Shown here: in pieces, positions 22,812-50,700 of the stretch
Layout: every line of letters starts with the position of its first letter
Position numbering within the stretch: the first letter of the stretch is position 1
From: Trypanosoma brucei
Taxonomy: Eukaryota
Length of the DNA stretch: 64,000 bases
Direction: 5' to 3'
Assembly (NCBI GenBank): GCA_000002445.1
Contig: CH464491.1
Coordinates: forward strand, 2,752,001-2,816,000
Translations under genes and position numbers: made by a program
Notes under the pieces: generated by a model
Told to the model about the DNA's origin: nothing
Databases searched by the model: none
What the model saw: the letters and a program-made list of their open reading frames with translations, nothing else

Positions 22812-22854
<43 letters not shown>

Positions 22855-23278: not shown

Positions 23279-23854
23279 ATGGAGGACGAACCGACTCAAA
23301 TCCTTCTCACCAGAGAACAGTTGGAGCGAAGTGTGGAACGCCTTAGCAAACCCCATTCGCGTGAGGTGAATTTGAAACCACTCTGCAAATCCGTTCGACT
23401 CCCACAAGAGGCGAGGGAGCGCAGTATTAAACATCTTTACAATGATTCCATGGAGCACAAGGAAAGACGGCTCCGTGAGATTGAGCAAAGCCTCAATGCA
23501 GAAATAGAAAAGTACCACGCGGGGAAACCAAAGCTCGACTCGGCGGATACGGAGGGTTTAGTATCGCGTCTGTATAATGAATCCATTCAGCGAAAGAATG
23601 ATAATTTAAGACAGTTGTTTGAGCACCAGGTTTCCCTCTCACGCCCTAAAGAAAAGAAACTGAAAAAGGCAGAGCAGCAGGAGTTTGTTACACGCCTTTA
23701 CCAAGGAGGTATGGAACATAACCGAAAGAAACATATTGCATTATTTGAGGAACATGTCTTGGCGAGAGAACCAAAAATGGCGCAGCGAAGTCCGGAGGAT
23801 CTCGAGATTGCTTGTAGTAAACTAACAAGTGGCAAGAGTGTTACCGATGACTAA
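23279..23854 (+). CDS. Small charged protein (~191 aa) containing three ~42-aa internal repeats sharing the core (L/H)LY(N/Q)xS(M/I)(E/Q)(H/R)(K/N).
   Basis: The track ORF begins at 23168 inside an AT-rich microsatellite. The first ATG is at 23279 (MEDEPTQILL). The three repeats are KHLYNDSMEHKERRLREIEQ, SRLYNESIQRKNDNLRQLFEHQ and TRLYQGGMEHNRKKHIALFEEH. A polyY tract at 22985-23023 lies upstream. Confidence 0.5.
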   Translation: MEDEPTQILLTREQLERSVERLSKPHSREVNLKPLCKSVRLPQEARERSIKHLYNDSMEHKERRLREIEQSLNAEIEKYHAGKPKLDSADTEGLVSRLYNESIQRKNDNLRQLFEHQVSLSRPKEKKLKKAEQQEFVTRLYQGGMEHNRKKHIALFEEHVLAREPKMAQRSPEDLEIACSKLTSGKSVTDD

Positions 23855-24840
23855 CTCTGCTGCATGCTTGAATGGGGAAAAAAAAAATCCAACAAAAAAG
23901 AAAAGGAGGGGAAGAAAGGAAATGGAAAGATACGGTTGCTGTAGGAAGAAGTGCAAAGTGACAGCAGGCAGCAAAAAAGAAAAATAGGAGGGAAAAGTGT
24001 CAATTGAAGTATTATGTATAAACAAGGAATGAAAAGAGAAGAAGTTAGTGTCGTATACGTAACCACTCAGAAAAGGGGTTACCGCTGTTACTACGACTAA
24101 AATTAGGCTATGTTTCCGTACTTGCATGTGCGTTTTTTTTGTGTGTGTGTGAGAGCACATGATTGTATATGATTGTGTTTTTGTATTTATTTATTATCTC
24201 CTCCACCCATTATTCACCTTTTTAATAACTAACGCAGTTAGAGCCTACCACTATTTCTTTGTGGATATTTTGGTATGCCCTGCGACTACGCCATTTCACC
24301 TTTAGAATCAGTTTGCCAATGGGTTTCTTTTTTTTCCATCCTCTGACTCAACGCATACATCCGGTTTGTCACGAGCATTTGTCACCTTCGCATGACTTTA
24401 TTGTTCGAATTGCTAATCATCTAAATGAATAAGTTTGTTACTGTTGGTACTCTGTATCTTTTTTCTTCCCTCTTTTTTTTTTACTTCCTTTTGTGTTTCT
24501 TGTATTTCTACCTGAAGCATAACACTAGTTCATCCAGTGCACGAAGTTTGAAAGGTGATTAAGGATTAGTTCACTCACCGCTGTTCAGTGCGCACACGCC
24601 TGTACTTTTTCACGTGCAAATGTGATGTGAGGGAGTTGAAGAGGGGAAGAAAAAGAAATATGAGGGGACATGTTGGATTTGTGCCGGTACACACTTACGT
24701 TGGAAAGTGTCATGCGTACCGCTGTGGCTGCTCGGTGCAATACACGTTTGAATGGTAATTTTTGCCTATTTTGTTATTGCTTGCTGGTGTTATTAATAAT
24801 GCTATTTATCGAGTAAGTAAATTTTTTGCGTCATTTTTCC

Positions 24841-33122: not shown

Positions 33123-34125
33123 AACGAGTAGGGACAACAGGAGCAAAAGAAAGGGGGAAAGGCAAGGACAAAATAATAAGGCAAAAGAAGCAGACCGCGA
33201 GAGAACAGTTCCGTTTTTGGCTCGGTGACGTCTCTTTTATAGCGACACGTTCCAGTGCTTCGGGTTCTCTTTTCCATCGTTCGTTGGTTACTTGTGGTGT
33301 TGTGTAGGCTGAGCAGTGCCGTTTCGAAAAGAGACGGTGCTGGTGGCAGTTACAATTATATATCCATATATAGCAAAAGAGTACTGAAAGCAGCAATAAA
33401 GTGCTTATCGCAGATAAAATGATTGTCGACCAACAGTGGGTGGCGGACACGACGTTATAGTTGACGGTGCGTTCGGGGAGGCGGTAAAGGCAGGGAAAAT
33501 AGTGCGGCAGAATAGCCTCATATTGTTGTGGCCCGCATGAATGCTGTCAGGCTTGGCTACCCTCTTCAACTAAATGATGAGATCGCGCCATTTTTTGTTC
33601 CTCTGTTTCTTTCCCCTGCATACACACGAATATATTCCCCTGTCGCTTCCCTCTCTTCACATTGTTTGATATGTTTAATTCACCTGCGTCACTTTCGTTG
33701 TGGCAGTGGATAGCTTACATTTGCGCAGTGTAAAGAGCCTCTAGGGACTAAACTCCTCGTTTTCCTCTCCCTCTGTCTTTCCATAGTAGCAGTAAACAAT
33801 TTGAACGAAGTTTTAGTTCACAGAAGTGCTGTGTTGACTTAGTCCACGTAGCGAAAGAAATAATTGCGCTTCCACGTATATTTATTATATATATAAAGAC
33901 CCCGGATTTATAAGGACGGAAACTGAAAAGAAACCAACCGACGAAGACCATAAAGGAAAAGAGGGACAAAAAAGTACAAGACCATCAACTGTGTTATAGG
34001 CGACACAGGGTAGGAATAGTTTCAACCTTGTGGGAGAAGACGGTGGTAGAGAAGGGGGGAGAAAGCAAAGAAGGGAAAATCCTGTCGAGAGAAGACAAGA
34101 GGTTCACAGGAAAGTGCAACACCCA

Positions 34126-34153
34126 TATATACATATATATATATATATATATA
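34126..34153. repeat. (AT)n microsatellite upstream of the giant gene.
   Basis: catatatacatatatatatatatatatataagtggg. A second (TA)10 run lies at 34406-34425. Confidence 0.9.
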
Positions 34154-34653: not shown

Positions 34654-37600
34654 ATGCCCTTCGCTCCCCAGGGACCTGTGATGGACCTGTACAACTCTGA
34701 TGAAGGGGATCTCCTCGCAATCAGGAGTGAAATGTGGATGTGCGCAGACAGTGAAAAGATGTTCAAGGTGGGCGCTGGCCGGGGGTCAAAGAACATTGTG
34801 AGCATTGAAAACGGGCATTTCTTTGTTTACTCCACTTGCGGAAAGCAGTCGCGGTTGATTAAGGACGTCCCCTTTCATTCAGTAAAGCGCACTGCGTCAT
34901 TTGTACATGATCCAAAGGTGTCTGGTGCGTCCACTGTGTCTGGGATGCAAACGGCGGCTTCGTCCTCGTCATCTTCAGCACGATCACGAGATAGGCGTGC
35001 GGATGTCCAGGTGCCTCCTTACTACTATCTCGTACTGGAGTTCGTACGGGATAAAACGGTAGCCGAGTCGACAAACCTAGCAAAGCGTGAGCACGTTGTG
35101 TTATGCACGGATAACGTGCAGGATTTTCAGTACTGGCAGCAATTCGTTGGGAGGTATAAGTGTCAGTTGAATCGCACTCAGCGACCTGATGAGAGTGTAG
35201 TGGGAGGGCGACGAAGTGGGAAAGGGTGTGTGAAAAGCGCATCACATAAGGAGTGTGATGATAGTGGAAGTGATGAGACGAACCTGGACATCAGCACACT
35301 CACAATGAAACTAGATGAGTTGCAGGAGTGGAAACGAATAGCAGTAGACCTCGCGGATGCGGTGGCGTCGTCGGGGGCGTTCCCTAACTGTAGACGAGAA
35401 TCGTTATCGAATACGGAACCAAATGTGGAGTTTAGTCTGAAATACGTAGAAAAACTGCTTGGTGAGCTGCGGAAAGGGGTGGATTGCCGGTTGAATACAC
35501 TGAACGAGACACAGCCTCCGCTGCCGCTGGTTAAAGATCTTAAACAGCAACTGGAATTGTGGAACAGTCTGTACGACAGAACCTTCTCTGACGACCGCAC
35601 TTCCGAAGCGAGGGGGCTTTTCACAAAAGAGCGGCAACAAGTGCGTGTGCAACGAATGGAAAACATTATTGCGAGGGAACGTACAGAGGGGTGCACAAAA
35701 TTGTCCCCAGTTGTAAGCCGGAGGGAGCTCGTAACATCACCTGAGGAGTGGTTGCAACTTCCCTGCTTGTCTACCTTAAGTGACGCTGATAGTGCACAAA
35801 ACTTAGTTGGAGGACAACGCGAGGGGGGAGTCTTAGACGGTAGCGCAATTACACTGTTAAGCAGTAGCACAGTCCATGCGGATGCACCTCAGGAAGTGTG
35901 GCAACGAGAGCGGAACTTGAGTAGTGCAAATGAAGGTGATATGTTCGCCGAATTGCGGGCGGCGCACCGCAACCTAGGACTGAGATCAGCTCCTCAACAC
36001 GAGTTCCACCAGCTGGAACGCGAGAAGAAAAATACAGAGCGGCTCGCCCGCGAAGGACTCCGTGCTTACACGGAGGCGACAATTGTACTTCTTCAGGCGT
36101 GTTATAGCGAGTACGTAACGGTGGTGGAATGTGTGCTATCTGCCATAAGCGGCGGCGTGGACACACGCGGCGAAAGAAGGCTTGTTACGGCGTATGCGCA
36201 CCTGCAGACGGTTGCAGCACTGGATGAAGCCCGCCGTGCCGCCACGGCGAAGCAGACTCTTCTAGAGAATCTTGTGAACGAACTCAAGGACCTCCAAAAG
36301 ACGCGGGACGAAGAGATTAACGCATTACGCAAAACCTTTTTTCGAGCCAAAGACGGATGGGAGAGTGATCTCGCAGTATTGCAAACAAAGTTAAGGACAC
36401 TGCAGAACACAATGACACAGACAACAGTCGTCGTGCCTTCCGACACGGTGTCATTCCCGCCTCTAGAAAGGGCTCTTTGCGGTGGTGAAAGCAGCCAAGA
36501 ACTGGGGAGGGACAGTGGTGAAGACAAAGTCTCAAACACTAAAATCGAGAGCGTAGACAAAGCAAGTTATGATGAATGTGATGAAGCGGATAGCGACGAA
36601 TCCATTAGGCGGTGGGCAACGCGGCTCACGTGCAGCCACGGTGAACAACGTGGCCACATTATAGCGTTCCGTTTAGAACGGTTCTTTCACTGGACACTCG
36701 AGAACGTCGTACCACTATGCTCCGGCGCAGACACAAACTGTTTGTTAGAACTCGTCATGCGTGCGTTAAGTAATCACATAACACTACTTCAAGCTGCAGG
36801 TGAGGTCTTCGGTACACAGGATGTCAAAGTTAGCGTGGACGACAACGGCGTCCGCGAGAGTAGAGACTTATGCAGTTCAATCCGAGACTTACACACGCAA
36901 CACAGCACCCTGAAGCATCTAGTAGGCAAATATATTGCCCTCACGGAAAATGAAGAAGACAGCCCCGTACTAAGATGCGACGAATTGGAAAAGCAATTAC
37001 AGCTCCACCAGTTTAATACAGCCACATTAGATCATATAAACAGCCTATTAGGAACTGACAACATGACCATAAAAAGGCGAATACAGGATATGATTCAAAA
37101 CGAAGAGCAGCTCCTCAGAATACAGGAAATCACAGGATCAAAAAGAGAAATATGCACAGTACAACACGTGCGACAAAAACACGAAGAACTTCGACAAATG
37201 AGCGAACTGATTAATCGATTAGATCAGTCACGAATGCACCAAGAAAAAGATCTAACAACACAAAATTACGAAGCCTTCACACAAATGAACACATCCGTCA
37301 AGAAAGCAGAGGAAATAATAGAAAATACAACGAAAAAATACAACGAGCTACAGCTACGAATAGACTTCGACAAAATAGAATTCAATGAACGCCTCCAAAT
37401 AGTACACGAATACTACAACGAACATCCACAGCATTACCATAACAACAAGATAAACAAACAAATCGAAGAACTAAATGAAATAATAGAAAAACAACAAAAT
37501 CTCATTGGACATCAAGATAAAAAAGAAAAAAAAACGGAAAGAAACTCATCTACACGTGCCCAGTGCCTACAAGGTATTGAGTCAGCTCTGGCTGTGCTTG

Positions 37601-40600
37601 GTACAACGGAGGCAGAAATGCCACTGGCATCAGCAATTCAGCGTGCTGCCGAGGAAGCTAAGGTTAGGGAAGACACACTGAAGCAAGAGCTAGACGAGGC
37701 TATGGGACGGGAAACTGCTCTGGAGGAACAACTGCGCAATCTGTCGCAAGCAACTATCGCACTACAAGGTACACTGTATGGTGGAGAAATGCCTACGGGG
37801 AATGATGGATCTGCCTTGGATGTTGGTCATGCTGCTATGAGTGCACTGGAGCGTATGCGTGAGGACGCTGCTAAGGCATCGGGGGTCATGACTGCCGCTA
37901 TGCAGGAAGGAGAAATGAGTGTACCCCTGTTAGCAAAATGTCACCATATGGCAGAGACCACGAATGCATTACGCGACAGTGAAAAGCATTACCGTGCGCT
38001 TGTAGGGGAGGACGTCAAGAAGGATAGCGGTTCCACTGGAACAGATGACTCATCTACACGTGCCCAGTGCCTACAAGGTATTGAGTCAGCTCTGGCTGTG
38101 CTTGGTACAACGGAGGCAGAAATGCCACTGGCATCAGCAATTCAGCGTGCTGCCGAGGAAGCTAAGGTTAGGGAAGACACACTGAAGCAAGAGCTAGACG
38201 AGGCTATGGGACGGGAAACTGCTCTGGAGGAACAACTGCGCAATCTGTCGCAAGCAACTATCGCACTACAAGGTACACTGTATGGTGGAGAAATGCCTAC
38301 GGGGAATGATGGATCTGCCTTGGATGTTGGTCATGCTGCTATGAGTGCACTGGAGCGTATGCGTGAGGACGCTGCTAAGGCATCGGGGGTCATGACTGCC
38401 GCTATGCAGGAAGGAGAAATGAGTGTACCCCTGTTAGCAAAATGCCACCATATGGCAGAGACCACGAATGCATTACGCGACAGTGAAAAGCATTACCGTG
38501 CGCTTGTAGGGGAGGACGTCAAGAAGGATAGCGGTTCCACTGGAACAGATGACTCATCTACACGTGCCCAGTGCCTACAAGGTATTGAGTCAGCTCTGGC
38601 TGTGCTTGGTACAACGGAGGCAGAAATGCCACTGGCATCAGCAATTCAGCGTGCTGCCGAGGAAGCTAAGGTTAGGGAAGACACACTGAAGCAAGAGCTA
38701 GACGAGGCTATGGGACGGGAAACTGCTCTGGAGGAACAACTGCGCAATCTGTCGCAAGCAACTATCGCACTACAAGGTACACTGTATGGTGGAGAAATGC
38801 CTACGGGGAATGATGGATCTGCCTTGGATGTTGGTCATGCTGCTATGAGTGCACTGGAGCGTATGCGTGAGGACGCTGCTAAGGCATCGGGGGTCATGAC
38901 TGCCGCTATGCAGGAAGGAGAAATGAGTGTACCCCTGTTAGCAAAATGCCACCATATGGCAGAGACCACGAATGCATTACGCGACAGTGAAAAGCATTAC
39001 CGTGCGCTTGTAGGGGAGGACGTCAAGAAGGATAGCGGTTCCACTGGAACAGATGACTCATCTACACGTGCCCAGTGCCTACAAGGTATTGAGTCAGCTC
39101 TGGCTGTGCTTGGTACAACGGAGGCAGAAATGCCACTGGCATCAGCAATTCAGCGTGCTGCCGAGGAAGCTAAGGTTAGGGAAGACACACTGAAGCAAGA
39201 GCTAGACGAGGCTATGGGACGGGAAACTGCTCTGGAGGAACAACTGCGCAATCTGTCGCAAGCAACTATCGCACTACAAGGTACACTGTATGGTGGAGAA
39301 ATGCCTACGGGGAATGATGGATCTGCCTTGGATGTTGGTCATGCTGCTATGAGTGCACTGGAGCGTATGCGTGAGGACGCTGCTAAGGCATCGGGGGTCA
39401 TGACTGCCGCTATGCAGGAAGGAGAAATGAGTGTACCCCTGTTAGCAAAATGCCACCATATGGCAGAGACCACGAATGCATTACGCGACAGTGAAAAGCA
39501 TTACCGTGCGCTTGTAGGGGAGGACGTCAAGAAGGATAGCGGTTCCACTGGAACAGATGACTCATCTACACGTGCCCAGTGCCTACAAGGTATTGAGTCA
39601 GCTCTGGCTGTGCTTGGTACAACGGAGGCAGAAATGCCACTGGCATCAGCAATTCAGCGTGCTGCCGAGGAAGCTAAGGTTAGGGAAGACACACTGAGGC
39701 AAGAGCTAGACGAGGCTATGGGACGGGAAACTGCTCTGGAGGAACAACTGCGCAATCTGTCGCAAGCAACTATCGCACTACAAGGTACAGTATGTGAAGA
39801 TGGTGCGGATGTGAGTTGTGATATTTCTACTTTTGATCTTTGTAGTGTGGCATTTCTTTCTTTGGGTGTTATTGAAAGTGCTTTTGAGTGTTCAATATCT
39901 CGTGAAGTCTCCCTGAAGAAACAGGTGGAAGAGGCTCATAAAAGAGAAGTTGCGCTCAGGTCTCGATTGAAGTCTTTGGCGAGTGCGGCAACAGCTGTTC
40001 AGAGTACATTGGACGGAAATGCTTCTCCAGAAAGAGTTAGTCCCAAGGAGTCTTCTATTTGTTCTGGTGATGAAGTGGATGGTGACGATGCTTTTGTTGA
40101 TCCTTTTGTTGCCGTTCAACGTGCTGCAGAGGAGTCAAAGGCTTGTAGGAATGCACTGGAAGAAAAACTGAAGGAGGGTGCTGCACGGATTGACGCTGTT
40201 GAGGGACGGCTCTTGCAACTTTCACGTTCCATTATTTGTCTGCACTCTAAGTTGTTTGATGCAGAAATAGGTGGCAATGGTGAGGAACGCGCCGTGGAGT
40301 TAAGTGAGTTGGCTCTTGTTGCTGCTGATGCCATTGAAAACGCTTTTGAGTGTTCAATATCTCGTGAAGTTTCCCTGAAGAAAAAGGTGGAAGAGGCTCA
40401 TAAAAGAGAAGTTGCCCTTAAAACGCGTTTGAAATGCTTGGTTGGTGCGGCAACAGCTGTTCAGTGTACGTTGGAAGGTGGGAATTATTCCTGCACCGCA
40501 GATGACCCTTTAAGTTTGTCGGGTTGTGATATGTCTGCCTCTACCAACCTGGACGATTCTGTACTGGGATCTGTCGCGGCAATTCAGCGTGCTGCCGAGG

Positions 40601-43600
40601 AAGCTAAGGTTAGGGAAGACACACTGAAGCAAGAGCTAGACGAGGCTATGGGACGGGAAACTGCTCTGGAGGAACAACTGCGCAATCTGTCGCAAGCAAC
40701 TATCGCACTACAAGGTACACTGTATGGTGGAGAAATGCCTACGGGGAATGATGGATCTGCCTTGGATGTTGGTCATGCTGCTATGAGTGCACTGGAGCGT
40801 ATGCGTGAGGACGCTGCTAAGGCATCGGGGGTCATGACTGCCGCTATGCAGGAAGGAGAAATGAGTGTACCCCTGTTAGCAAAATGCCACCATATGGCAG
40901 AGACCACGAATGCATTGAATGAGAACGACCGCGAGCTGCGGATGATGTCCAGAAACTTATCCTTTCAACTCTCTGTAGCTATGTTGTTTTTGGAAGAGGC
41001 TGAAGAACGACTAACCCATGTTGTTCGGTATGGATGGGTCCCGGCGAAAGTTGTTTCTGCCGCACTCTGTGGTTGGTTAGTGTTGTGTTGTGCGGGAGAT
41101 TTATTTCACTGCAGCTCTGGCGACACTATTTCTACCTTGGTTGATGTGCGGAAGGAGTTGGATGATCTTCGGAAGCTGTGTGGTTCTCAGAATGCCTTCG
41201 ATCACGGGGAAGTTGCGAATGTGTCGCGGTCGGAATGCTTGCTCGCGATTAAGCGATCCGTCGCTTCTCTTTGCGCTGATGGCGCCGCAGATCCGTCGTT
41301 ACCTCTCCCAACTCAGTTGCAGAAGTGCGTGCAGTCAACCGTGGACGAAATGTATCGCCTTCGTGATGACGCGGATAGTGCGTTGAGTGAAAACGTCAGA
41401 CTAAAACGGGATTTGCAGATGGTTGTCGGGGGCTGTGAAACCTCCCTCGAGTATTTGGGAAGTGCGTGTGGATCCTCTTTGTGTCCCGCACTCAGTCCGC
41501 GATCAGGTGTAGCAGCGGTGTCTAACCTCGTCGTAATGACGGCACGAATTGCAAGTGAGAAATTGTCGAGTCTGCGATCCGTGTGTGAGGAATGTAACTC
41601 TGTTATTGAGCGTGCCCGTAGGAGAGAAGAGCGGTCTCACTCGCGGGAGTCTTCGCCAGCGTCACATCGTGTAGAGGATGGCGCAGAGGCTTTACTTGTG
41701 GAGCGTTGCAAAGAGCTGGTGTCGGAGCTGCTCGTGTTGCGTACCGATCGACGGACTAGCACGGCTGCAATAGACCAGAGGCTTATGGAGAGTGAGTTGA
41801 TGGTGACATCCGTACGAAATGCCATAGAGAACCTACGAACTTCCCTTGATATCGATGTACCTATCGGCACACCTGCCCTGGATTTAGTAAGGACTTCTGG
41901 TAGTTGTGGAGAAGCAGTTGAAGGTGCTATCAGTGAGAAAAGGCAAGTTTCCGCCACCGGACCGAGTTTAGCGGAACTGGACACCTCTATCCGTACCCAG
42001 CTCGAACTCTGCGTGCTTGCAGTGATCAGACAATTACGTGAAAAGGACCGGGTAATTTCCGCTGCGGCAACTTTGTTGGGAGATGCGCTGCGTTCATGCT
42101 CCAGTGCCATTAGAGACGAAGTTACTACTGATTCGCTTTTAGCGGTTGCAAGCGGTACTGCTCACAGTCTGCACTCCCTATTCTCAGAGTTACAGAGTGT
42201 TCGTGCGTCGCTTAAACAATCGCAGCACCACACGGAAGAGCTGCGTACGCGGTTGGAGGGGGGAGAAACAACGCAGCTGGCAACTCTGGAGGCGCAGACG
42301 GAGTCAGTTGCCACAGCGGAACGGCTACTTAATGAGGCACTACAACGACAAGTTGCGGCATCAGCGCAAACAGCAAGACTACAGCGGACGCTCATGGACT
42401 TCGCAGGAAGCATAGCAGCTTCAACGCTTTATGCTGACGATGCAGGTGACCGCGTTGATAAAACGGGAGATGTGGGGGCGTCGGTTTCCGTAGTGGAAGA
42501 GAGATGGCTAGACGGTATTGTAAGGCACGTTGCTCAGCGCATGCAGGAGTCTGAAAGTCTTAAGGGAAAGCTGAAGTTGGTTACATCAGAATTGGAGAGT
42601 GTACGAATAAGGATGACCGCTACTGAGGTGGCTGCACGGGAAGCAGAATTGAATGCGCAGAGTGTGGAAGTCGGTAATCTCACGCGGATAGCTGAAGCAA
42701 CGGCTCGTGTCGAGTTACTTCGCAACGCACTCAGTGAAAGAAGCGTGGAGTTGCAGAAGATGCACCAGCGTGTAGAGCGTCATGAGAAACAGGTGGAAAC
42801 TCTGAAGGCGGAGATTTCAAACGATGCGCGTTCTTTTGACAACGAGCGCTGCAGCCTCCTGCGAGCGCAATCCACGTTGCTAGCAGAAAATACACTGAAA
42901 CAGCAACAACTGGATGAACTTCGCCAAAAGCTATGGGAAGGTGAGAAAAGTCTCCACGAGTTCCTTCATAATTCTCGAGTGGTGTCGTTGGTCGATGCCA
43001 CAAATAAAATACGGAGCCTCTCGGCCAACGCCGTGTGCGGGGTTTTAATGCTTGACGAAATGGAGCGACGCTCCGAGATACTTCAGAGCTATATACTGAG
43101 TTTCCCGACGCAGGAAAGTACCCTTCTGAGTGTTTGTGCTTGCATTGCTAGCACCCTTTCTGAGCGTGAGGTGCAACGACTGCCTGACAGCGTGCACCGA
43201 CTTAACCAGCGGGTGCAGAAGTACAAACATTTGCTAGGAAACCCCACCAAAGTGCCAGGACCTACGCGAGCAGTGGCCGTTTTAGCCTTGCAAAAGTTGG
43301 CTGAAACAGTGGAGCTAGCGGAATCCGTGAGCAGCACATCCTTTGTTTCTAATTTGATCGCAGCCGTTGCCGATTTTCGGACTAGGTATCTAATAGCGAA
43401 CGAGCGGATAGCTAAACTGGAAAAGGAAGTGAATAGCGGCGGAACATTAATGGAGATGTGTGACAGACGGGTATGGGAAATGGTTAAGTTGCTCCGACAG
43501 GCCAACAGTGTCGGAGGGTTACACAGTGGGTCGCAGGAAGGGCCGCGGGGAGAGTGCCAAACCGACGTTGTAGACTTTTCAGTTGCTCAACTTGACGCCC

Positions 43601-46600
43601 TTCAGAGCTTGGCTTTAGAGTGTGGAATTGCTGCTAAATATATCCATCGTCATACCGAAGCAAACAGGAAGGCATTGGAAACTCTGCGTCATGTATATGA
43701 CGGCGAATCGATATTCGAAGCTTGTAGTCACGCCAATGAAATGATGATGAAGTACCGTGAGTCTGAGGAAGACTTGCGGGCTCAACTACTGGACGTACGT
43801 TCGCAGTTGGAAGCATGTCGACACAGCATTGAGGAAAGCTTTAGTGTGTTCGCCGAGACGAGTACGTTGAATGATGCTAAAAAGGTTGAGTTTCTCCAAC
43901 AACAGTGTGCTGCCGCTGCGGCGGAATTAAGGCGTCTCAAAGATGAAGCGCGCGTAGCACAGGGCCTTCTTGCAAGCGCTGGGCACGATACCCATGACGG
44001 TGATATCTGCAGGAACCTCGCAGAGTTGTTGAAAGAAGAAGAAAAGCAGCGAGAGTGTGTGAACCTACTCCAGTCGGAGAAGAAATGCGCGCGAAAGCAG
44101 TTGCAAGAATTAGGGAACAAACTGAGAGCAACGGAAGAAATGAGGAACGCTGAACTAGAAGAGGTGCAAAACCGCAATGACACATTGCGCACACGCTTGG
44201 AGGAACAGTCGAGGCAAAACAATGAATGGTGTCAATTTGTTTCGACATGTGCCGGTGTTGTTGGATGCCCTGTGGAGAACATGCAGTTTGAAAAGAGCAA
44301 AAATAAGATACTTCAAACTTTAAGGAATGTAGCCTCTTCGCAATCCGTATGCGCTGAGGCGGGAATACTCTGCACAACCGCGCAGGAGGAACAACTGCAG
44401 TGCCATCGCGAGGGGGCGAACGCGGCCGTTGCGCGTCTGGACATGCCAGGTAGCGAAAGATACCGCTGCCAACTGCTAGAGTTTGTGGGAAGTGTCGAAG
44501 AAGTCCTTTCCGAGTTGTGTCCCGAGAAGTCTGAAAGCTTTCTAACAACCAAAGATGCTCCTTTGGAGCTCCGCGTGTGCCAGGCGGCTGGACAACTGTG
44601 TTCGGCAAAAGATACTGTGCAGGCGAACATACAAAAACTGGAGGCTGAAATTGCTTCTGCCAAGAAGAAAAACAAAGCTCAAAAAAGAGAGATGGAAGAT
44701 GCGAGGAAGGCCCTTCACAAGGAACTTGAGGTTGGCGGCCCGGCGGTTGCATCTTGTGCTCTTTCAACACTTACTGAAGGCATTCGAAAAAAACTCCGTG
44801 AGACGCTTGACGAAAATCGAAAACTGGGAACGGCCTTGGAGGAGCTACGCATCGATAATGCGCAACTGGAGAGGACTCTAAGGTGTGTGGAACAACAACT
44901 CTCTGAGACGCATACGCAACTACAGTGCATCACAGAGTCAAATGGTGAATGCAGAGGTCAAAATGCCACCCTGCAGGAGAGAGTTGACCCGCTTACTGAA
45001 CCTACTGAAGAGGCTTCCAGGAAGTTCAGGAGCCCAACTCAGTCACCCGACATTGATGCTGATGCCGCCGGCCTTGCGCAAGTTCACGAAGTTTGCTTCG
45101 GTAGGGGGCCGAGCATACAACACCGCAGTGAGGAACCACGGGAGTTTGAGGATAATCTAAGGGGTAACTGCCGCAGTGATGCCGCTGCTGTGATGGACGT
45201 AGGTGTAGCGCCGAAAGAACAGCGTTCACTCCTGGAGAGGCTGCAGCAGGTGACCAAGGAACGCGACGTCTTGACATTGGAATCGGAAAAACTCGTTGAA
45301 CGTGTGCAGAGTGTGCTTTATGAGCACTTGAACGTCCAGCAGGAATTACTTTCCTATTGTAGTAACGCAAATGAAAATGAGTTGGGGGAAAGCGACACAA
45401 CCGTGGGGGATATTGTCCAGCTTTGCGTTGAGCGTCTGGAGCACTACCTCTCTGAAACAAAGACGCTGAGGGAAGACGCTACCTCCGCAAAACTAGAAAG
45501 CGCACGGATGGCAGAAGAGGTGGCTGCACTACGGGGTCGCATCAAACACCTCCAGGACGACAACCACGTAGCGGAACGGGACTCACTCAGGCAAAATGCA
45601 GAATTCGAGAGTCTGTCACGTCAGCTGCAGGCGTTCTTTAACGATGCATTGCACATGGCAGTCAATGACCTGCGACTCCGCTTGCCACCTGTCACAGACA
45701 CAAGCGCCATCGGGGCACTCTACGGTCTCCAGTCTCTTTTCGACTGCATGCTAAGTAAATGTCGTGATTCTATTGCTTTCGATGAAGAAAAGCTAAATTG
45801 CAGACTGAACGAACTGAAAGGAAAGCATGCGAAGGATTTAAAGAGTTTGCATCGCGTTTTTTGCGCCCACGTGACGACGTACACGGACGACCCAAATGAC
45901 GAGGACTCTGCTCGTAGCGAAGGTGACGGCAGCAGTCCCGTCAATTTGCCCACCACCGACAGGCTCAGCGGAGGGCTCACACCAGAACATATTGTTGCTG
46001 CGGGAGACGCACTGCATCACGTGCACAGCAACGTTTGTCACATTGTATGGGCATGTATACGACATGCGGAGAGGGCGCCCCCTCCTTCATTACATACAAT
46101 GGGCCTACCCGCGCTAACAGCACTTTTAGGGGAGGTTGTCGTTGCCTCACTAGAGCGGGCGGAGCTGCTGCAAGGGGCGATGGTGGCTGGGTCGAGGGCA
46201 CTTGGAATTCTTCCAGTGGACCCTTCTTTAAACCAGCAGCACATGGAGGAATGGTTAGAATGTTTTACCTCAGAAATTCAGCGCGTTCAGCGAAGCGGTG
46301 AAGGTTGTGAGCTCTTGCTTAATCATTTAGAGATTCTCCTACAAGACCACGGGATCAGCGTCGGAGAGTTAGTCAGCAACAGCCGCAGCCAAAGCACACT
46401 CAGTAATGTTGGTCGACTTTCACAAGACAACCAACTTGGCTCACCCCGTGGTCCCAGCAGCAGCGTGGCGGTGCAGGATGTCATGGAGTTTCGCTCTCGT
46501 GCACTGCTCGGTGCGTTGCGCGACCTTATTGCACAATTTGAGCACCGCTACAGCACACTGACGTCCGAGTGGCAGGCACTAACAGATCAAAACAACCGGC

Positions 46601-46905
46601 TCAAGACTTCACAGCAGGCAAATGAGGAGGAGTTTGCACGCGTCCAGGAGCAAATGCAAGAGCTGCGGCATGCTGTAAGAAAGAAGGTTGAAGACGACCG
46701 CAAAGTGGAGCAGAGCTTACGTGATCTAGACAACCATCTCGACATGCAAGCAAGGGAGCTTGCCATGAAGTATCGTGCAGACCAAGAGGCGATTTCCAGG
46801 CAGTTTGCAGAGTTGCGTGGGTCGATTCGCAGGGTGGTAATACCAACACAAGAGCAGTTGGGGACGCCGTCTCCGAAATACGATTTCGTGTACCCTAGGG
46901 AATAA
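34654..46905 (+). CDS. Giant repeat-containing protein (4083 aa). The N-terminal ~960 aa are non-repetitive. The central section holds about 4.5 near-identical 168-aa tandem repeats plus older diverged copies. The C-terminal ~2000 aa are a coiled-coil-rich region. It is probably a cytoskeletal or flagellar structural protein.
   Basis: ATG at 34654 and a single 12.25-kb ORF. The repeat unit is STRAQCLQGIESALAVLGTTEAEMPLASAIQRAAEEAKVREDTLKQELDEAMGRETALEEQLRNLSQATIALQGTLYGGEMPTGNDGSALDVGHAAMSALERMREDAAKASGVMTAAMQEGEMSVPLLAKCHHMAETTNALRDSEKHYRALVGEDVKKDSGSTGTDDS. Copies start at 37549, 38053, 38557, 39061 and 39565, the last one partial. The C-terminal region has E/L/R/Q-rich heptads. Confidence 0.9.
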   Translation: MPFAPQGPVMDLYNSDEGDLLAIRSEMWMCADSEKMFKVGAGRGSKNIVSIENGHFFVYSTCGKQSRLIKDVPFHSVKRTASFVHDPKVSGASTVSGMQTAASSSSSSARSRDRRADVQVPPYYYLVLEFVRDKTVAESTNLAKREHVVLCTDNVQDFQYWQQFVGRYKCQLNRTQRPDESVVGGRRSGKGCVKSASHKECDDSGSDETNLDISTLTMKLDELQEWKRIAVDLADAVASSGAFPNCRRESLSNTEPNVEFSLKYVEKLLGELRKGVDCRLNTLNETQPPLPLVKDLKQQLELWNSLYDRTFSDDRTSEARGLFTKERQQVRVQRMENIIARERTEGCTKLSPVVSRRELVTSPEEWLQLPCLSTLSDADSAQNLVGGQREGGVLDGSAITLLSSSTVHADAPQEVWQRERNLSSANEGDMFAELRAAHRNLGLRSAPQHEFHQLEREKKNTERLAREGLRAYTEATIVLLQACYSEYVTVVECVLSAISGGVDTRGERRLVTAYAHLQTVAALDEARRAATAKQTLLENLVNELKDLQKTRDEEINALRKTFFRAKDGWESDLAVLQTKLRTLQNTMTQTTVVVPSDTVSFPPLERALCGGESSQELGRDSGEDKVSNTKIESVDKASYDECDEADSDESIRRWATRLTCSHGEQRGHIIAFRLERFFHWTLENVVPLCSGADTNCLLELVMRALSNHITLLQAAGEVFGTQDVKVSVDDNGVRESRDLCSSIRDLHTQHSTLKHLVGKYIALTENEEDSPVLRCDELEKQLQLHQFNTATLDHINSLLGTDNMTIKRRIQDMIQNEEQLLRIQEITGSKREICTVQHVRQKHEELRQMSELINRLDQSRMHQEKDLTTQNYEAFTQMNTSVKKAEEIIENTTKKYNELQLRIDFDKIEFNERLQIVHEYYNEHPQHYHNNKINKQIEELNEIIEKQQNLIGHQDKKEKKTERNSSTRAQCLQGIESALAVLGTTEAEMPLASAIQRAAEEAKVREDTLKQELDEAMGRETALEEQLRNLSQATIALQGTLYGGEMPTGNDGSALDVGHAAMSALERMREDAAKASGVMTAAMQEGEMSVPLLAKCHHMAETTNALRDSEKHYRALVGEDVKKDSGSTGTDDSSTRAQCLQGIESALAVLGTTEAEMPLASAIQRAAEEAKVREDTLKQELDEAMGRETALEEQLRNLSQATIALQGTLYGGEMPTGNDGSALDVGHAAMSALERMREDAAKASGVMTAAMQEGEMSVPLLAKCHHMAETTNALRDSEKHYRALVGEDVKKDSGSTGTDDSSTRAQCLQGIESALAVLGTTEAEMPLASAIQRAAEEAKVREDTLKQELDEAMGRETALEEQLRNLSQATIALQGTLYGGEMPTGNDGSALDVGHAAMSALERMREDAAKASGVMTAAMQEGEMSVPLLAKCHHMAETTNALRDSEKHYRALVGEDVKKDSGSTGTDDSSTRAQCLQGIESALAVLGTTEAEMPLASAIQRAAEEAKVREDTLKQELDEAMGRETALEEQLRNLSQATIALQGTLYGGEMPTGNDGSALDVGHAAMSALERMREDAAKASGVMTAAMQEGEMSVPLLAKCHHMAETTNALRDSEKHYRALVGEDVKKDSGSTGTDDSSTRAQCLQGIESALAVLGTTEAEMPLASAIQRAAEEAKVREDTLRQELDEAMGRETALEEQLRNLSQATIALQGTVCEDGADVSCDISTFDLCSVAFLSLGVIESAFECSISREVSLKKQVEEAHKREVALRSRLKSLASAATAVQSTLDGNASPERVSPKESSICSGDEVDGDDAFVDPFVAVQRAAEESKACRNALEEKLKEGAARIDAVEGRLLQLSRSIICLHSKLFDAEIGGNGEERAVELSELALVAADAIENAFECSISREVSLKKKVEEAHKREVALKTRLKCLVGAATAVQCTLEGGNYSCTADDPLSLSGCDMSASTNLDDSVLGSVAAIQRAAEEAKVREDTLKQELDEAMGRETALEEQLRNLSQATIALQGTLYGGEMPTGNDGSALDVGHAAMSALERMREDAAKASGVMTAAMQEGEMSVPLLAKCHHMAETTNALNENDRELRMMSRNLSFQLSVAMLFLEEAEERLTHVVRYGWVPAKVVSAALCGWLVLCCAGDLFHCSSGDTISTLVDVRKELDDLRKLCGSQNAFDHGEVANVSRSECLLAIKRSVASLCADGAADPSLPLPTQLQKCVQSTVDEMYRLRDDADSALSENVRLKRDLQMVVGGCETSLEYLGSACGSSLCPALSPRSGVAAVSNLVVMTARIASEKLSSLRSVCEECNSVIERARRREERSHSRESSPASHRVEDGAEALLVERCKELVSELLVLRTDRRTSTAAIDQRLMESELMVTSVRNAIENLRTSLDIDVPIGTPALDLVRTSGSCGEAVEGAISEKRQVSATGPSLAELDTSIRTQLELCVLAVIRQLREKDRVISAAATLLGDALRSCSSAIRDEVTTDSLLAVASGTAHSLHSLFSELQSVRASLKQSQHHTEELRTRLEGGETTQLATLEAQTESVATAERLLNEALQRQVAASAQTARLQRTLMDFAGSIAASTLYADDAGDRVDKTGDVGASVSVVEERWLDGIVRHVAQRMQESESLKGKLKLVTSELESVRIRMTATEVAAREAELNAQSVEVGNLTRIAEATARVELLRNALSERSVELQKMHQRVERHEKQVETLKAEISNDARSFDNERCSLLRAQSTLLAENTLKQQQLDELRQKLWEGEKSLHEFLHNSRVVSLVDATNKIRSLSANAVCGVLMLDEMERRSEILQSYILSFPTQESTLLSVCACIASTLSEREVQRLPDSVHRLNQRVQKYKHLLGNPTKVPGPTRAVAVLALQKLAETVELAESVSSTSFVSNLIAAVADFRTRYLIANERIAKLEKEVNSGGTLMEMCDRRVWEMVKLLRQANSVGGLHSGSQEGPRGECQTDVVDFSVAQLDALQSLALECGIAAKYIHRHTEANRKALETLRHVYDGESIFEACSHANEMMMKYRESEEDLRAQLLDVRSQLEACRHSIEESFSVFAETSTLNDAKKVEFLQQQCAAAAAELRRLKDEARVAQGLLASAGHDTHDGDICRNLAELLKEEEKQRECVNLLQSEKKCARKQLQELGNKLRATEEMRNAELEEVQNRNDTLRTRLEEQSRQNNEWCQFVSTCAGVVGCPVENMQFEKSKNKILQTLRNVASSQSVCAEAGILCTTAQEEQLQCHREGANAAVARLDMPGSERYRCQLLEFVGSVEEVLSELCPEKSESFLTTKDAPLELRVCQAAGQLCSAKDTVQANIQKLEAEIASAKKKNKAQKREMEDARKALHKELEVGGPAVASCALSTLTEGIRKKLRETLDENRKLGTALEELRIDNAQLERTLRCVEQQLSETHTQLQCITESNGECRGQNATLQERVDPLTEPTEEASRKFRSPTQSPDIDADAAGLAQVHEVCFGRGPSIQHRSEEPREFEDNLRGNCRSDAAAVMDVGVAPKEQRSLLERLQQVTKERDVLTLESEKLVERVQSVLYEHLNVQQELLSYCSNANENELGESDTTVGDIVQLCVERLEHYLSETKTLREDATSAKLESARMAEEVAALRGRIKHLQDDNHVAERDSLRQNAEFESLSRQLQAFFNDALHMAVNDLRLRLPPVTDTSAIGALYGLQSLFDCMLSKCRDSIAFDEEKLNCRLNELKGKHAKDLKSLHRVFCAHVTTYTDDPNDEDSARSEGDGSSPVNLPTTDRLSGGLTPEHIVAAGDALHHVHSNVCHIVWACIRHAERAPPPSLHTMGLPALTALLGEVVVASLERAELLQGAMVAGSRALGILPVDPSLNQQHMEEWLECFTSEIQRVQRSGEGCELLLNHLEILLQDHGISVGELVSNSRSQSTLSNVGRLSQDNQLGSPRGPSSSVAVQDVMEFRSRALLGALRDLIAQFEHRYSTLTSEWQALTDQNNRLKTSQQANEEEFARVQEQMQELRHAVRKKVEDDRKVEQSLRDLDNHLDMQARELAMKYRADQEAISRQFAELRGSIRRVVIPTQEQLGTPSPKYDFVYPRE
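37545..39796 (+). repeat. Tandem array of a 504-bp unit (about 4.46 copies) inside the giant CDS. Copies differ by only 1-2 nucleotides.
   Basis: Unit starts, taken as the TCTACACGTGCCCAGTGCCTACAAGG landmark, are at 37549, 38053, 38557, 39061 and 39565. The period is exactly 504 bp. Copy 1 carries a TGT/TGC synonymous difference near 37936. Copy 5 carries an AAG-to-AGG change (K to R) near 39696 and diverges after about 39790. Confidence 0.95.
39871..40482 (+). repeat. Two diverged ~462-bp repeat copies related to the 504-bp unit (older, decayed copies).
   Basis: ATTGAAAGTGCTTTTGAGTGTTCAATATCTCGTGAAGTCTCCCTGAAGAAACAGGTGGAAGAGGCTCATAAAAGAGAAGTTGCGCTCAGG at 39871 matches ATTGAAAACGCTTTTGAGTGTTCAATATCTCGTGAAGTTTCCCTGAAGAAAAAGGTGGAAGAGGCTCATAAAAGAGAAGTTGCCCTTAAA at 40333 at about 90% identity. 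Each is followed by AVQRAAEESK and AIQRAAEEAK-like segments that echo the main unit. Confidence 0.8.
40577..40913 (+). repeat. Additional detached partial copy (~337 bp) of the 504-bp unit. It is near-identical to the array copies and sits 0.8 kb downstream.
   Basis: The stretch GCAATTCAGCGTGCTGCCGAGGAAGCTAAGGTTAGGGAAGACACACTGAAGCAAGAGCTAGACGAGGC...ACCACGAATGCATT matches the array unit from the AIQRAAEEAK motif through HMAETTNAL. Confidence 0.9.
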
Positions 46906-47320: not shown

Positions 47321-47741
47321 CCTCACTGGGTGAAAGCGGGTTGTGGTTAACGAGAAAAAGCAAGCAGATAAGGGTTACCTGCAAAAACTGTTGGATCCTC
47401 TTGGGGGATCGAAGTGAGTACGTCGCCCTTTAGCGCAAGCGGGGCAAACTGGGAGGGTGAAGGAAAAAAACACGGGTGCGCACAAACGGAGTTGTCTTGT
47501 TGTAGTTCAGTCGTGCTTCCGCAGATACGGTTGTAATTCCTAGGGGTTGCAAACCGAGAGAAAACGGGGACTACGCCGGCCAAGGCGTGGATATTAAAGA
47601 GCGGCAAACCATTGATCACATATCCATACCGGTTAGCTATCCCCTTCCTATACATACATACACGCAAACACACTCCGCTTGCATATATAGACATCATACG
47701 CTAAGGTGTAACTGGTCTTGATTCTACCGGTGCAAGTCACT

Positions 47742-50700
47742 ATGTCGTCCCGCGATTTGAGGGGTCGGGCGTGTTCAAATTCAACTGCGGCTAGTGCTTC
47801 GCGACTGCTCTGTCTGCCATGGGAACTCGTTGAAGTTGAGCTTCCGAAAGAAATGGATGTTCCGGTAAGTGAATCACTATTTTCTGTTGGAAACGGACGT
47901 GTAACCGTCCGGGGATATACGGAGGAGTCACTCGTTGCGCCCCCGTATTCGAGGGGTACAAACTCTCACGATATAGCCATCCGTAGTCCTGTAGTTTCCT
48001 TGTACGGTGGTATTGGCAATGATGTCATCAAGGTGGGGAACAGGAGTTTGAGCAACAGTCATCTCCTTGGAAACCCATCTTCACCCGTTAGGTGTGACTC
48101 GTTACCCACCGAGGGGCACCCGACCGCCTCCAAAGAATGGAAGCCCCCTGAACGAACCCTGCGTGGGACTTACGTCAACGGGATCTGCGAGGAGCTTCTG
48201 TTAACCCATCATCAGCAGCAAAGGGCATTCACTGTTGGAACTTGTGCTCGTGAGTCATTTCTTGTATGTGCGCCGGATGCCTTTTGCATCGACGTTTTTG
48301 TCGGAGGTGAGCACGTGAATTCAGAAACAGGGATCATACTTTCGCACAGACGCACGTTAGATTATCACACGGGTGAGCTTCGTCGGCACCTGGTGTGGCA
48401 ATCCAGGAGTAATGGGCACGAGGTGACCATTGAGTCTTCAAGAATTGTTTCCCTAACACGGAGGAGCATCGCAGCAGTTAAATATTCTGTTAGTGCCAAG
48501 AACGTCTCCAATACGAATATCCGCATCGTATCTCGTACCATTGTTCCTTCGGGTGTGCGACAACACCTTAAGATTGAAAATGTTATGACTAGGCGCACTC
48601 TGCATGACGCTTCGACAGCGGTGCTTGTGCGCACACGAAATAGTTGCAAGCGGTTAGTGGTGGCTGAGTTTGAGGCTTGTCGTAGCACGCACTACGAGCT
48701 CATTAACACACAGAGTGTGCCGACGTTTTCAACTGTTACAAGTGCAGTAGGAGCACATGGTGCTAACACTCCACCGTGCGCCGTAGCAGCAGATGCGTCT
48801 TTAGCTGCAGGCCGGACACCATTGGCTTCGCCTAAGCCGATGGCACAACCACAGCCGCAACCAACACCATCCTTGACCTTCCTCGCACCGAAATGTTCTG
48901 AGATACGAAACGGCGCAGAAACCATCTACACCAGCGTAATACGTGAGTCTACACGGTTTGAGCTTACCAAATACATTGCCTTCCTAGTTGACGAGGATGC
49001 AGCACCGGAGGATATTTGTGACCTGGGAATGCACCGTGCTCGAGAAGCGGCTGCTGTCACCTACGAGGCCATCTGTCGCGAACAGTTGGACGTTTTGTCA
49101 AATTTCTGGGAGAGAGGGAATGTACATATCAAAGCCAGTGGTCCGTCGCTTGAAAGTGCGGTGAGATTTAACATGCTGCACCTTCTTATGTCGTCGGGAG
49201 GGTTACAAATGCAAAGTCACCCGTCGCGTGGTTTTATGAGTCAGCTGCAGGGAGGCATGCACCAGTGGGATGTAGACGCGTTTATCGTTCCTTTTTTCTC
49301 ACATGTGCGCCCCGAAGTCGCACGCGGGTTGTTGCAGTTTCGTATTGACACGCTGCCGCAAGCGAGAAGCCTTGCGGCGGACGTTGATCTTCCACGAGGT
49401 GCACTATACCCACAGAGGACTGTGAACGGTTTGGAAAGCAATCCTCCGCCGTTCTGCGCGGCCTTCCTGTTTACAAATGCGGTTGTTGCGTACGGTATGA
49501 AGCAGTATATTACTGCCACAAATGATTTCTCCATTCTACCGCAAGGTGGTGCTGATGTTCTCTTTTCTACTGCGCTCATTTGGCTTATATGGGGTACGTG
49601 GGATAAAGCAGAGTTCCACGTTAGATCTGTGGGGGGACCCGATGATTACAGCTGTCTCGGTGATAATAATTACTTTACAAATCTCATGGCAAAGTTTCAC
49701 ATGCAGTGGGCGGTGCAAATAGCCGCATCGATGCAAAGAGACTATCCTAACGAATGGGAAGGCGTGAAGGAGAGATGCCAACTAACTGATGATGACCTTG
49801 CAATGATGGACAAGGCCGCTGCAAAGGTGGTACTAGTTTTCGATGCCAAAAATCGTGTGCACCCTGTTGATCAGTTATTCATGAGGAAGAAAAAGTGGAA
49901 ATTTGATGAACTGAAGAAGAAGAAAAGTCTTCTATTTCGTACGTTTGACCCTTCTGTTGTTTACCGACATCAGGTATGTCGCATTCCCGACGTGGTTCTT
50001 GCCTCGCTTTTATTGCCGGAAAAGTGCACAAAAGACGAGGTGCGTGCCAACTACAATTTCTATGAGCCTATCACCACAAGCGATTGCTCGCTTACCTCGA
50101 TGATATTTAGTATCATTGCAATACAACTTGATATGTTGGACAAGGGAATGCACTATTTCCACCAGGCTCTCTTCAACGATATTGAAAATGCGCTCGGTAA
50201 TACAGCCCGCGGCATCCACTGCAGCTCCGCGGCGGGATCTTGGTGGTGTTTGACCGTTGGATTCGGTGGAATGAGGGTAGTTGATGACACACTGCACTTT
50301 AACCCTGTTCTCCCTGACGCGTGGGAGGAGTACCAGTTTTTTGTGCGCCATCACGGTTGCCTTATCAAGGTGCTTATTACTCGCAGGATGGTCACATATA
50401 CGGCTGTGGAGGGGTGCTTCGACAGGTGCGGTTTGCCGATTTATCATACGGAGATCAACACCATCCACCTGAAGGAAGGCATGTCTGAATCCGTGAGGCT
50501 TTACCGCGATGTTCGCGTATTTGACTTCGACTGTGTGGTGTTTAATCTTGACAGTTTGATCGAGGACCTGGAGGACCATCACTACCGCGCATGGAAGCAA
50601 ACCCTCGAGAAATACCTTCACGAAATGGGGCAAACTTCATTTGTGCTTACAGAGGACATATATCTTGCATACCTCAAGAATGGAAATTCGTTCACATCAT

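What the first reader, a model, noticed from the sequence alone, without database searches (positions are those of the whole stretch)
37545..40913. Recently homogenised 504-bp copies sit beside decayed copies, so repeat number is probably under-assembled
Four full copies and one partial copy differ by only 1-2 nt. One difference is a synonymous TGT/TGC and one is an AAG-to-AGG change. Immediately 3' lie two copies at about 90% identity with a 462-bp period, and a detached, nearly perfect 337-bp partial copy at 40577-40913. Fresh identical units sitting next to old diverged ones indicate ongoing concerted evolution by unequal crossover or gene conversion. Near-identical 0.5-kb tandem units are routinely collapsed by short-read assemblers, so the true copy number, and therefore the protein size, may be larger and may vary between strains.
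Basis: seen in the sequence. Interest (0 to 1): 0.55.

Follow-up and report, generated by a model that had tools for sequence, protein, structure and literature searches.

The report
Collapsed repeat array in giant trypanosome gene
A 504-bp unit repeated almost perfectly inside one very large Trypanosoma brucei gene is real, evolves in concert, and appears 4.5 times in this reference sequence but about 23 times in a long-read assembly of a close relative, so the reference protein is probably far too short; this is a known kind of problem in this genome.

Summary
The window is T. b. brucei TREU927 chromosome 11. The array lies inside one 4083-aa ORF (34654-46905, XP_829130.1). By its neighbours this is Tb927.11.10660, a cytoskeletal protein reported at the basal body.

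Layout in the window:
- Four 504-bp units (37544-39559) that differ at one synonymous site.
- A 235-bp fifth copy (39560-39794).
- A 784-bp diverged spacer (39795-40578).
- A detached 338-bp copy (40579-40916).

- **Copy number differs between assemblies.** TREU927 has 4.47 units and T. b. gambiense DAL972 has 6.47. The PacBio-containing T. equiperdum IVM-t1 assembly has 18.47 plus a duplicated block with 4.29 more, about 7,417 aa in all.
- **Short reads fail here.** A T. equiperdum OVI contig stops 32 bp inside the repeat.
- **Units are homogenised.** Three unit positions carry one base in every TREU927 copy and another in every copy of the other two genomes.
- **The array is old.** T. cruzi has about 50 units of 510 bp that are 99-100% alike but only about 50% identical to the T. 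brucei unit.

Collapse in TREU927 itself is not proven, because no reads were available. The phenomenon is known from p197 and NUP-1. This is a new member of a known kind, of moderate interest.

The parts
34654..46905 (+). ORF of 4083 aa (450 kDa, pI 5.2). It is identical to XP_829130.1 / EAN80018.1 / UniProt Q383L3, 'hypothetical protein, conserved', T. b. brucei TREU927. Inferred gene ID: Tb927.11.10660.
   Evidence: The ID is inferred from the neighbours. The upstream adaptin gene is Tb927.11.10650, AP-3 beta, 100 kDa. The downstream GH65 gene is Tb927.11.10670, a putative trehalose phosphorylase.
34711..35178 (+). N-terminal conserved domain (aa 20-175), predicted as beta-strands followed by a C-terminal helix. 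PH-like, but not established.
   Evidence: 49-54% identity to four Trypanosoma orthologues. The AF2 model has pLDDT 66 overall and 75-89 in the core strands. The best Foldseek hits are PH-domain proteins (Vav1, GRK2, Dbs), but only at E 0.08 or weaker. No Pfam hit.
37544..39559 (+). Four full 504-bp (168-codon) tandem units that differ at a single synonymous site.
39560..39794 (+). Fifth, partial unit (unit positions 1-237) carrying one K>R substitution at 39698. The array ends here.
39795..40578 (+). 784-bp diverged spacer 'D'. It contains an 82-86% identical pair with 462-bp spacing (39871-40016 and 40333-40478). Its product is an old, diverged relative of the unit, 31-33% identical at protein level.
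   Evidence: The spacer is the same length in all three Trypanozoon genomes and differs by 2-7 nt between them.
40579..40916 (+). Detached partial unit 'Z' (unit positions 90-427). It carries the same TREU927-specific bases as the main array.
   Evidence: In T. equiperdum the corresponding element after the first spacer continues as a second array.

Best explanation
The region is an in-frame tandem array inside one giant trypanosome gene, probably Tb927.11.10660, which is reported as a cytoskeleton-associated basal-body protein.

**DNA level.** The 504-bp units are kept almost identical by repeated unequal exchange and/or gene conversion between units, that is, by concerted evolution. The same process changes copy number between lineages and can duplicate whole blocks. 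The 4.47 copies in this reference sequence are most likely an under-count produced by assembling reads shorter than the array. The true T. brucei-group number is probably around 20 or more.

**Protein level.** Each unit encodes a 168-aa, 17.8-kDa, acidic, mainly alpha-helical module. The array probably serves as a long spacer or tether between an N-terminal PH-like domain and the C-terminal half, so its length scales with copy number, as shown for p197.

**Shown:** the array anatomy, the differences between assemblies, lineage-specific fixation, conservation of the array across Trypanosoma, and the helical prediction.

**Inferred:** collapse in TREU927 itself, the gene ID, and the spacer function.
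For: - Anatomy.
- Identity of the window: exact match to the TREU927 protein.
- Copy numbers: 4.47 in TREU927, 6.47 in DAL972 and 18.47 + 4.29 in T. equiperdum IVM-t1. The gene spans 22,235 bp there against 12,252 bp here. With the frame restored that is about 7,417 aa and about 800 kDa.
- Assembly failure: the OVI contig breaks 32 bp into the repeat.
- Fixed differences: unit positions 221, 248 and 257 differ between all TREU927 copies and all copies of the other two genomes, and 299 does so except in two T. equiperdum partial copies. The unique flanks differ by only 0.5-0.6%.
- Block duplication: T. equiperdum D1 and D2 are 100% identical over 784 bp. Only the two partial copies that follow a spacer carry T at position 299. 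Both fit one unequal crossover between Z and the main array.
- Age of the array: T. cruzi Dm28c has about 50 units of 510 bp at 99-100% identity. They are followed collinearly by a homologue of T. brucei aa 1991-3209, E 1e-123. T. cruzi Brazil A4 has 22.2 kb of array. T. melophagium has identical units with nested 28-aa sub-repeats.
- Fold: four helices per unit in the AF2 model.
- Localisation: Tb927.11.10660 was a TbPLK-BioID hit in the cytoskeletal pellet and was localised to the basal body by endogenous tagging (PMC4551316).
- Precedents in the same genome: p197 and NUP-1.
Against: - No reads were available, so collapse in TREU927 is not demonstrated. TREU927 could genuinely have few copies.
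- The IVM-t1 assembly is a hybrid with few PacBio reads: 7,508 reads, mean 8.5 kb (PMC6395869). Its array carries uncorrected 1-bp indels. Its exact count and the second block rest on little data.
- DAL972 has only 6.47 units, so two of the three Trypanozoon assemblies agree on a small number. I recall both as capillary-read assemblies, but did not check this here.
- The unit model has low confidence (pLDDT 54), so the tertiary arrangement is unknown.
- The gene ID rests on neighbour numbering, not on a direct look-up.
- The spacer function is by analogy only.
Confidence: 0.75

Rival explanations
1. The TREU927 sequence is correct. This strain really has 4.5 copies, and the differences from DAL972 and T. 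equiperdum are true strain polymorphism with no assembly error.
For: DAL972 also has a small number, 6.47. The ORF is intact and in frame, and the array junctions are identical in all three genomes. At 2.25 kb, the array could probably have been bridged by the paired clone ends of a capillary-read project (my assumption; not checked).
Against: Every assembly that contains long reads gives 20 or more units: T. equiperdum 22.8, T. cruzi Dm28c about 50, Brazil A4 at least 43. An independent assembly of T. equiperdum (OVI) breaks at the repeat. In the same reference annotation, p197 has 3.5 repeats against about 26 in a later genome sequence.
Confidence: 0.2
2. The high count and the second block in T. 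equiperdum IVM-t1 are artefacts of low-coverage PacBio data and of merging two assemblies. The true Trypanozoon number is near 5-7.
For: Only 7,508 PacBio reads were used, and the assemblies were merged with Metassembler. The array has many 1-bp indels. D1 and D2 are 100% identical, which a merging artefact would also produce.
Against: In my understanding, long-read errors are mainly small indels rather than gains of whole 504-bp units. The units carry a non-periodic pattern of variants at positions 20, 104, 151 and 249, which would not arise from copying one unit. The G/A at position 20 and T/C at 249 also occur among the DAL972 units. T. cruzi long-read assemblies independently show much longer arrays.
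Confidence: 0.1
3. The near-identity reflects a single very recent amplification in T. brucei, not ongoing homogenisation.
For: The TREU927 copies differ at only one site. In the cross-genome unit alignment, every unit position that varies among the full units of T. equiperdum or DAL972 is invariant among the TREU927 copies.
Against: The array exists, homogeneous within each species, in T. cruzi, T. c. marinkellei, T. melophagium and T. conorhini, at about 50% identity between clades. It is therefore old and has been kept homogeneous repeatedly. The detached copy beyond the 784-bp spacer shares the TREU927-specific bases, which needs exchange across the spacer.
Confidence: 0.07

Closest known systems
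p197 (Tb927.10.15750), the exclusion-zone filament protein of the T. brucei tripartite attachment complex
   Same: p197 is a giant protein at the basal body. Its central alpha-helical domain is made of nearly identical repeats of about 0.5 kb (175 aa). TriTrypDB lists 3.5 repeats, whereas a recent EATRO1125 genome sequence indicates about 26, giving about 660 kDa. Its length sets the distance from basal body to mitochondrial outer membrane (PMC9546609). It was also a TbPLK-BioID hit localised to the basal body.
   Different: It is a different gene on chromosome 10, and sequence relatedness was not tested here. p197 orthologues in other kinetoplastids lack the repeats, whereas here the array is conserved in T. 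cruzi and in the T. theileri group. Here there is also an N-terminal PH-like domain, a diverged spacer and a detached copy. No functional data exist for the repeats of this protein.
NUP-1 (Tb927.2.4230), the trypanosome lamina protein
   Same: A protein of more than 400 kDa with 17 near-perfect 144-aa repeats. The repeats are nearly identical within each orthologue but diverge strongly between species. The protein has an extended conformation (PMC3313915). This is the same signature of concerted evolution.
   Different: NUP-1 is at the nuclear periphery, not the basal body. It is an unrelated locus, and its repeat is described as almost exclusively coiled coil.
Collapsed tandem-repeat clusters in trypanosomatid reference assemblies (general)
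   Same: Long-read T. cruzi assemblies resolved repeat clusters that had been collapsed, or that sat at contig ends, in the earlier assembly. They also revealed copy-number differences between strains (PMC5994713).
   Different: Those reports concern mostly gene arrays and satellites. This is one intragenic array whose under-count changes the predicted size of a single protein.

Membership tests
Intragenic tandem array under concerted evolution | Units within a genome are much more alike than orthologous units between genomes. | tested here: met
   TREU927 units differ at 1 of 504 sites. T. cruzi units are 99-100% alike. T. brucei and T. cruzi units are about 50% identical at protein level.
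Intragenic tandem array under concerted evolution | Lineage-specific substitutions are present in all copies of one genome. | tested here: met
   Unit positions 221, 248 and 257 are A/G/G in every TREU927 copy, including the detached one, and G/A/A in every T. equiperdum and DAL972 copy. Position 299 is T in every TREU927 copy and C in the others, except two T. equiperdum partial copies.
Intragenic tandem array under concerted evolution | Copy number differs between related genomes. | tested here: met
   4.47, 6.47 and 18.47 + 4.29 units.
Assembly-collapsed repeat in this particular sequence | Excess read depth over the array, or long reads with more units than the assembly. | not testable with these tools
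   No TREU927 reads were available. Indirect evidence only.
p197-like length-setting spacer protein | Central domain of nearly identical, alpha-helical repeats of about 170 aa. | tested here: met
   168-aa units. The AF2 model shows four helices per unit, about 77% helix, at low confidence (pLDDT 54).
p197-like length-setting spacer protein | Localisation at the basal body in the detergent-insoluble cytoskeleton. | not testable with these tools
   From the literature only. Tb927.11.10660 is listed as 'BioID P' and 'BB' in Table 1 of PMC4551316. The link between the ORF and that ID is inferred from its neighbours.
p197-like length-setting spacer protein | The two termini sit at different structures, and shortening the repeat domain shortens the distance between them. 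| not testable with these tools
   Needs expansion microscopy and repeat-deletion mutants.
p197-like length-setting spacer protein | Sequence homology to p197. | not tested
   The p197 sequence was not retrievable with the tools used. The unit search of 1.84 billion representatives gave eight hits: seven fragments of this same array in Trypanosoma species and one weak (E 9e-7) unrelated repeat protein.
PH domain (N-terminus) | Seven-stranded beta-sandwich capped by a C-terminal helix, with significant similarity to known PH domains. | tested here: inconclusive
   The model has that general layout: DSSP calls nine strand segments followed by one long C-terminal helix. The top Foldseek hits are PH domains of Vav1, GRK2 and Dbs, with E 0.076 or weaker and TM 0.35. 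No Pfam hit.

The most novel reading that the evidence does not exclude
Tb927.11.10660 and its orthologues would be among the largest trypanosome proteins. On this reading they reach about 0.8 MDa in the T. brucei group and probably more than 1 MDa in T. cruzi, where about 50 units of 170 aa are followed by a C-terminal half collinear with the T. brucei one. Their size would have been hidden by repeat collapse and frameshifted gene models. The protein would be a second basal-body 'ruler' or tether conserved across the genus, with the number of 170-aa helical modules setting a physical distance. Copy-number change by unequal exchange would then tune that distance between strains and species.
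Probability: 0.25. Interest if true: 0.65.

Novelty: new member of a known kind. Interest (0 to 1): 0.4.

Why it matters
The reference annotation gives this protein as 4083 aa and 450 kDa. The comparative evidence suggests about 7,400 aa or more. That affects several kinds of work: RNAi and tagging design, quantification of repeat peptides in proteomics, interpretation of Western blots, and fitting of candidates into cryo-EM densities. One preprint already lists Q383L3 as a candidate for a density in the flagellar central apparatus. It also adds a second basal-body protein, beside p197, in which repeat number could set a cellular dimension. Unlike p197, the array here is conserved across Trypanosoma, which makes a comparative test of a 'length matters' model possible. 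As a general phenomenon (collapsed near-identical repeats, concerted evolution) it is well known and would not surprise a specialist.

Tried and rejected
- Tandem Repeats Finder found nothing in the array, because its longest period is 500. I used the repeat finder and blastn instead.
- The homologue search with the whole 4083-aa protein timed out.
- The N-terminal search gave only 5 hits.
- The unit search in the word-indexed database gave 1 hit.
- The C-terminal 700-aa search gave none, probably because low-complexity words filled the candidate list.
- The exact-protein look-up of the window ORF in the assembly index found nothing. The sequence was identified through the cluster look-up instead.
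- Pfam on the whole protein gave only sub-threshold noise: SASP, DDE_Tnp_IS1595, ADAMTSL1.
- Rfam found nothing in the window.
- I considered whether the spacer pair were decayed DNA copies of the 504-bp unit. I rejected this at DNA level, since blastn finds no match, and accepted it at protein level.
- I considered whether blocks B1-B3 of T. equiperdum are simple copies of the last three units of its main array. Their variant patterns do not match one-to-one, so later exchanges or read errors must be invoked.
- The EATRO1125 genome paper does not discuss this gene.
- My guessed old-style ID Tb11.01.2430 gave no hits.
Full report
**What the window is.** All ORFs of 250 aa or more lie on the + strand, apart from one that sits antisense inside the large ORF. 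The products include adaptin, an importin-like protein, COG2 and a MIF4G protein. This is a kinetoplastid polycistronic unit. The 4083-aa ORF at 34654-46905 is identical to XP_829130.1 / EAN80018.1 / Q383L3, 'hypothetical protein, conserved', of T. b. brucei TREU927, on a 5.26-Mb record.

The upstream adaptin gene fits Tb927.11.10650, AP-3 beta, 100 kDa (PMC4263762). The downstream GH65 gene fits Tb927.11.10670, a putative trehalose phosphorylase (bioRxiv 10.1101/2021.05.26.445766; Pfam). I therefore infer that the ORF is Tb927.11.10660. This was not looked up directly.

**Check of the observation.** Four 504-bp units occupy 37544-39559. They differ at one site, T at 37941 against C in the other three, which is TGT/TGC and synonymous. 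A fifth, partial unit runs from 39560 to 39794 (unit positions 1-237) and carries AAG>AGG at 39698. A 784-bp spacer follows at 39795-40578. It holds a pair of segments with 462-bp spacing that are 86% identical over 146 bp, or 82% over 169 bp.

A detached copy of unit positions 90-427 lies at 40579-40916 and has one mismatch to unit 1. The spacer has no DNA-level similarity to the unit. The protein encoded across it is 31-33% identical to unit residues 22-125, with E 1e-8 to 1e-9.

**Copy number elsewhere.**
- T. b. gambiense DAL972: the orthologue is 4419 aa, which is 4083 + 2x168. Its locus (L003) has 6.47 units, then the spacer, then the same detached copy.
- T. equiperdum IVM-t1: the locus was stitched from L001 and L002. 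It has 18.47 units, the spacer, a second block (unit positions 90-504, three full units, positions 1-237), the spacer again, and then the detached copy.
- The two T. equiperdum spacers are 100% identical over 784 bp, whereas spacers of different genomes differ by 2-7 nt.
- This layout is what one unequal crossover between the detached copy and a unit of the main array would give. Only the two partial copies that follow a spacer carry T at unit position 299, which fits that origin.
- The gene spans 22,235 bp there. With the frame restored it would be 22,254 bp, 7,417 aa and about 800 kDa. In that record it is split into many ORFs by 1-bp indels.
- That assembly combined PacBio RS II reads (7,508 reads, mean 8.5 kb) with MiSeq reads (PMC6395869). 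The exact count therefore rests on few molecules.
- T. equiperdum OVI: the contig stops 32 bp into the detached copy.

**Concerted evolution.** I aligned all 40 full and partial units of the three Trypanozoon genomes. Positions 221, 248 and 257 are A/G/G in every TREU927 copy, the detached one included, and G/A/A in every copy of the other two genomes. Position 299 is T in every TREU927 copy and C in the others, except for the two T. equiperdum partial copies noted above. Position 249 is partly sorted. The unique flanks of the gene differ by only 0.5-0.6%.

The array is also old. A search with one unit against 1.84 billion representatives gave eight hits at E 0.001 or better. Seven are fragments of this array in T. 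melophagium, T. cruzi, T. conorhini and T. equiperdum. The eighth is weak (E 9e-7) and looks like an unrelated repeat protein.
- T. cruzi units are 170 aa and 100% identical to each other in P0022. They are about 50% identical to the T. brucei unit.
- The T. cruzi Dm28c locus (L006) holds about 25.4 kb of 510-bp units, about 50 copies at 99-100% identity. A homologue of T. brucei aa 1991-3209 follows collinearly, at 30% identity and E 1e-123.
- A T. cruzi Brazil A4 contig is array throughout the 22.2 kb that was fetched.
- T. melophagium units are otherwise identical but contain 1-4 nested 28-aa sub-repeats.

So the array has been kept homogeneous within each lineage while diverging between lineages. 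This is the pattern already described for NUP-1 (PMC3313915).

**Is the window under-assembled?** This is not proven, because I had no reads. The indirect case is good.
- Every assembly that contains long reads gives 20 or more units.
- The OVI contig ends inside the repeat. The T. theileri and T. melophagium gene models end in or just after the first units. T. c. marinkellei units sit on contigs of under 1 kb.
- The same reference annotation is reported to under-count a very similar array. p197 has 3.5 repeats of 175 aa in TriTrypDB against about 26 in a recent EATRO1125 genome sequence (PMC9546609).
- The rival reading, that TREU927 and DAL972 truly have few copies, remains possible. I put it at about 0.2.

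**The protein.**
- Pfam finds nothing significant.
- Residues 20-175 are conserved, at 49-54% identity to four orthologues. They model as beta-strands followed by a C-terminal helix (pLDDT 66). The best structural matches are PH domains, but only at E 0.08 or weaker, so 'PH-like' is a lead, not a finding.
- Two units model as four helices per unit with loops between them, at low confidence (pLDDT 54).
- Tb927.11.10660 was recovered by TbPLK proximity labelling in the cytoskeletal pellet. It was localised to the basal body by endogenous tagging (PMC4551316).
- A cryo-EM preprint names Q383L3 as one of several candidates for an Ig-like density in the flagellar central apparatus. That evidence is weak.
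- By analogy with p197, the most likely role of the array is a long helical spacer or tether whose length scales with unit number. This is inference only.

**Verdict.** The thing itself is a new example of a known kind: a giant trypanosome cytoskeletal protein with near-identical repeats of about 0.5 kb that evolve in concert and are under-counted in the reference genome. It is useful for anyone working on this gene. It is of moderate general interest (0.4).

Noticed in passing
window 34711-35178 (aa 20-175 of the large ORF): Conserved N-terminal domain predicted as beta-strands followed by a C-terminal helix. The best structural matches are PH domains, at non-significant E values. Pfam does not recognise it.
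   Followed up: partly
L006 (T. cruzi Dm28c, PRFA01000040.1) about 2524-27953; L005 (T. cruzi Brazil A4) 1-22203: The T. cruzi orthologue carries about 50 near-identical 510-bp units. It is annotated as at least five separate ORFs (1128, 2343, 3896, 217/257 and 3571 aa), apparently through frameshifts. Restored, the protein would exceed 1 MDa.
   Followed up: partly
P0021 / P0002 (T. melophagium, 669-kb contig): The units of the orthologous array are identical except for a nested 28-aa sub-repeat present 1-4 times per unit, so there is a repeat within a repeat. The gene is split into two models.
   Followed up: partly
window 47718-51341 (+): A fusion of GH65 N-terminal, catalytic and C-terminal domains with a HAD hydrolase domain. 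It matches Tb927.11.10670, a putative trehalose phosphorylase, which is listed among the genes analysed in a study of lateral gene transfer in Leishmania (PMC4711719).
   Followed up: partly
window 22001-24000: A low-GC stretch (38% against about 49% for the window) in a 3.4-kb gap between the large ORFs. It contains a 228-aa ORF at 23168-23854. No Rfam hit.
   Followed up: no
window 7282-7400 (+), inside the MIF4G-domain ORF 6337-8430: A degenerate 12-nt / 48-nt tandem repeat (CAACCTCAACAG) that encodes a Q-rich tract.
   Followed up: no
window 37322-37346 and 34125-34153: Just upstream of the array, the ORF passes through an A-rich, K/N/E/I-rich stretch with a 13-nt direct repeat. An (AT)14 tract lies about 500 bp upstream of the start codon.
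   Followed up: no
bioRxiv 10.1101/2025.05.29.656921: Q383L3, the protein encoded here, is listed as one of several DomainFit candidates for an 'Ig-fold like' density in the T. brucei flagellar central apparatus. If the reference sequence lacks most of the repeats, such fits use an incomplete model.
   Followed up: no
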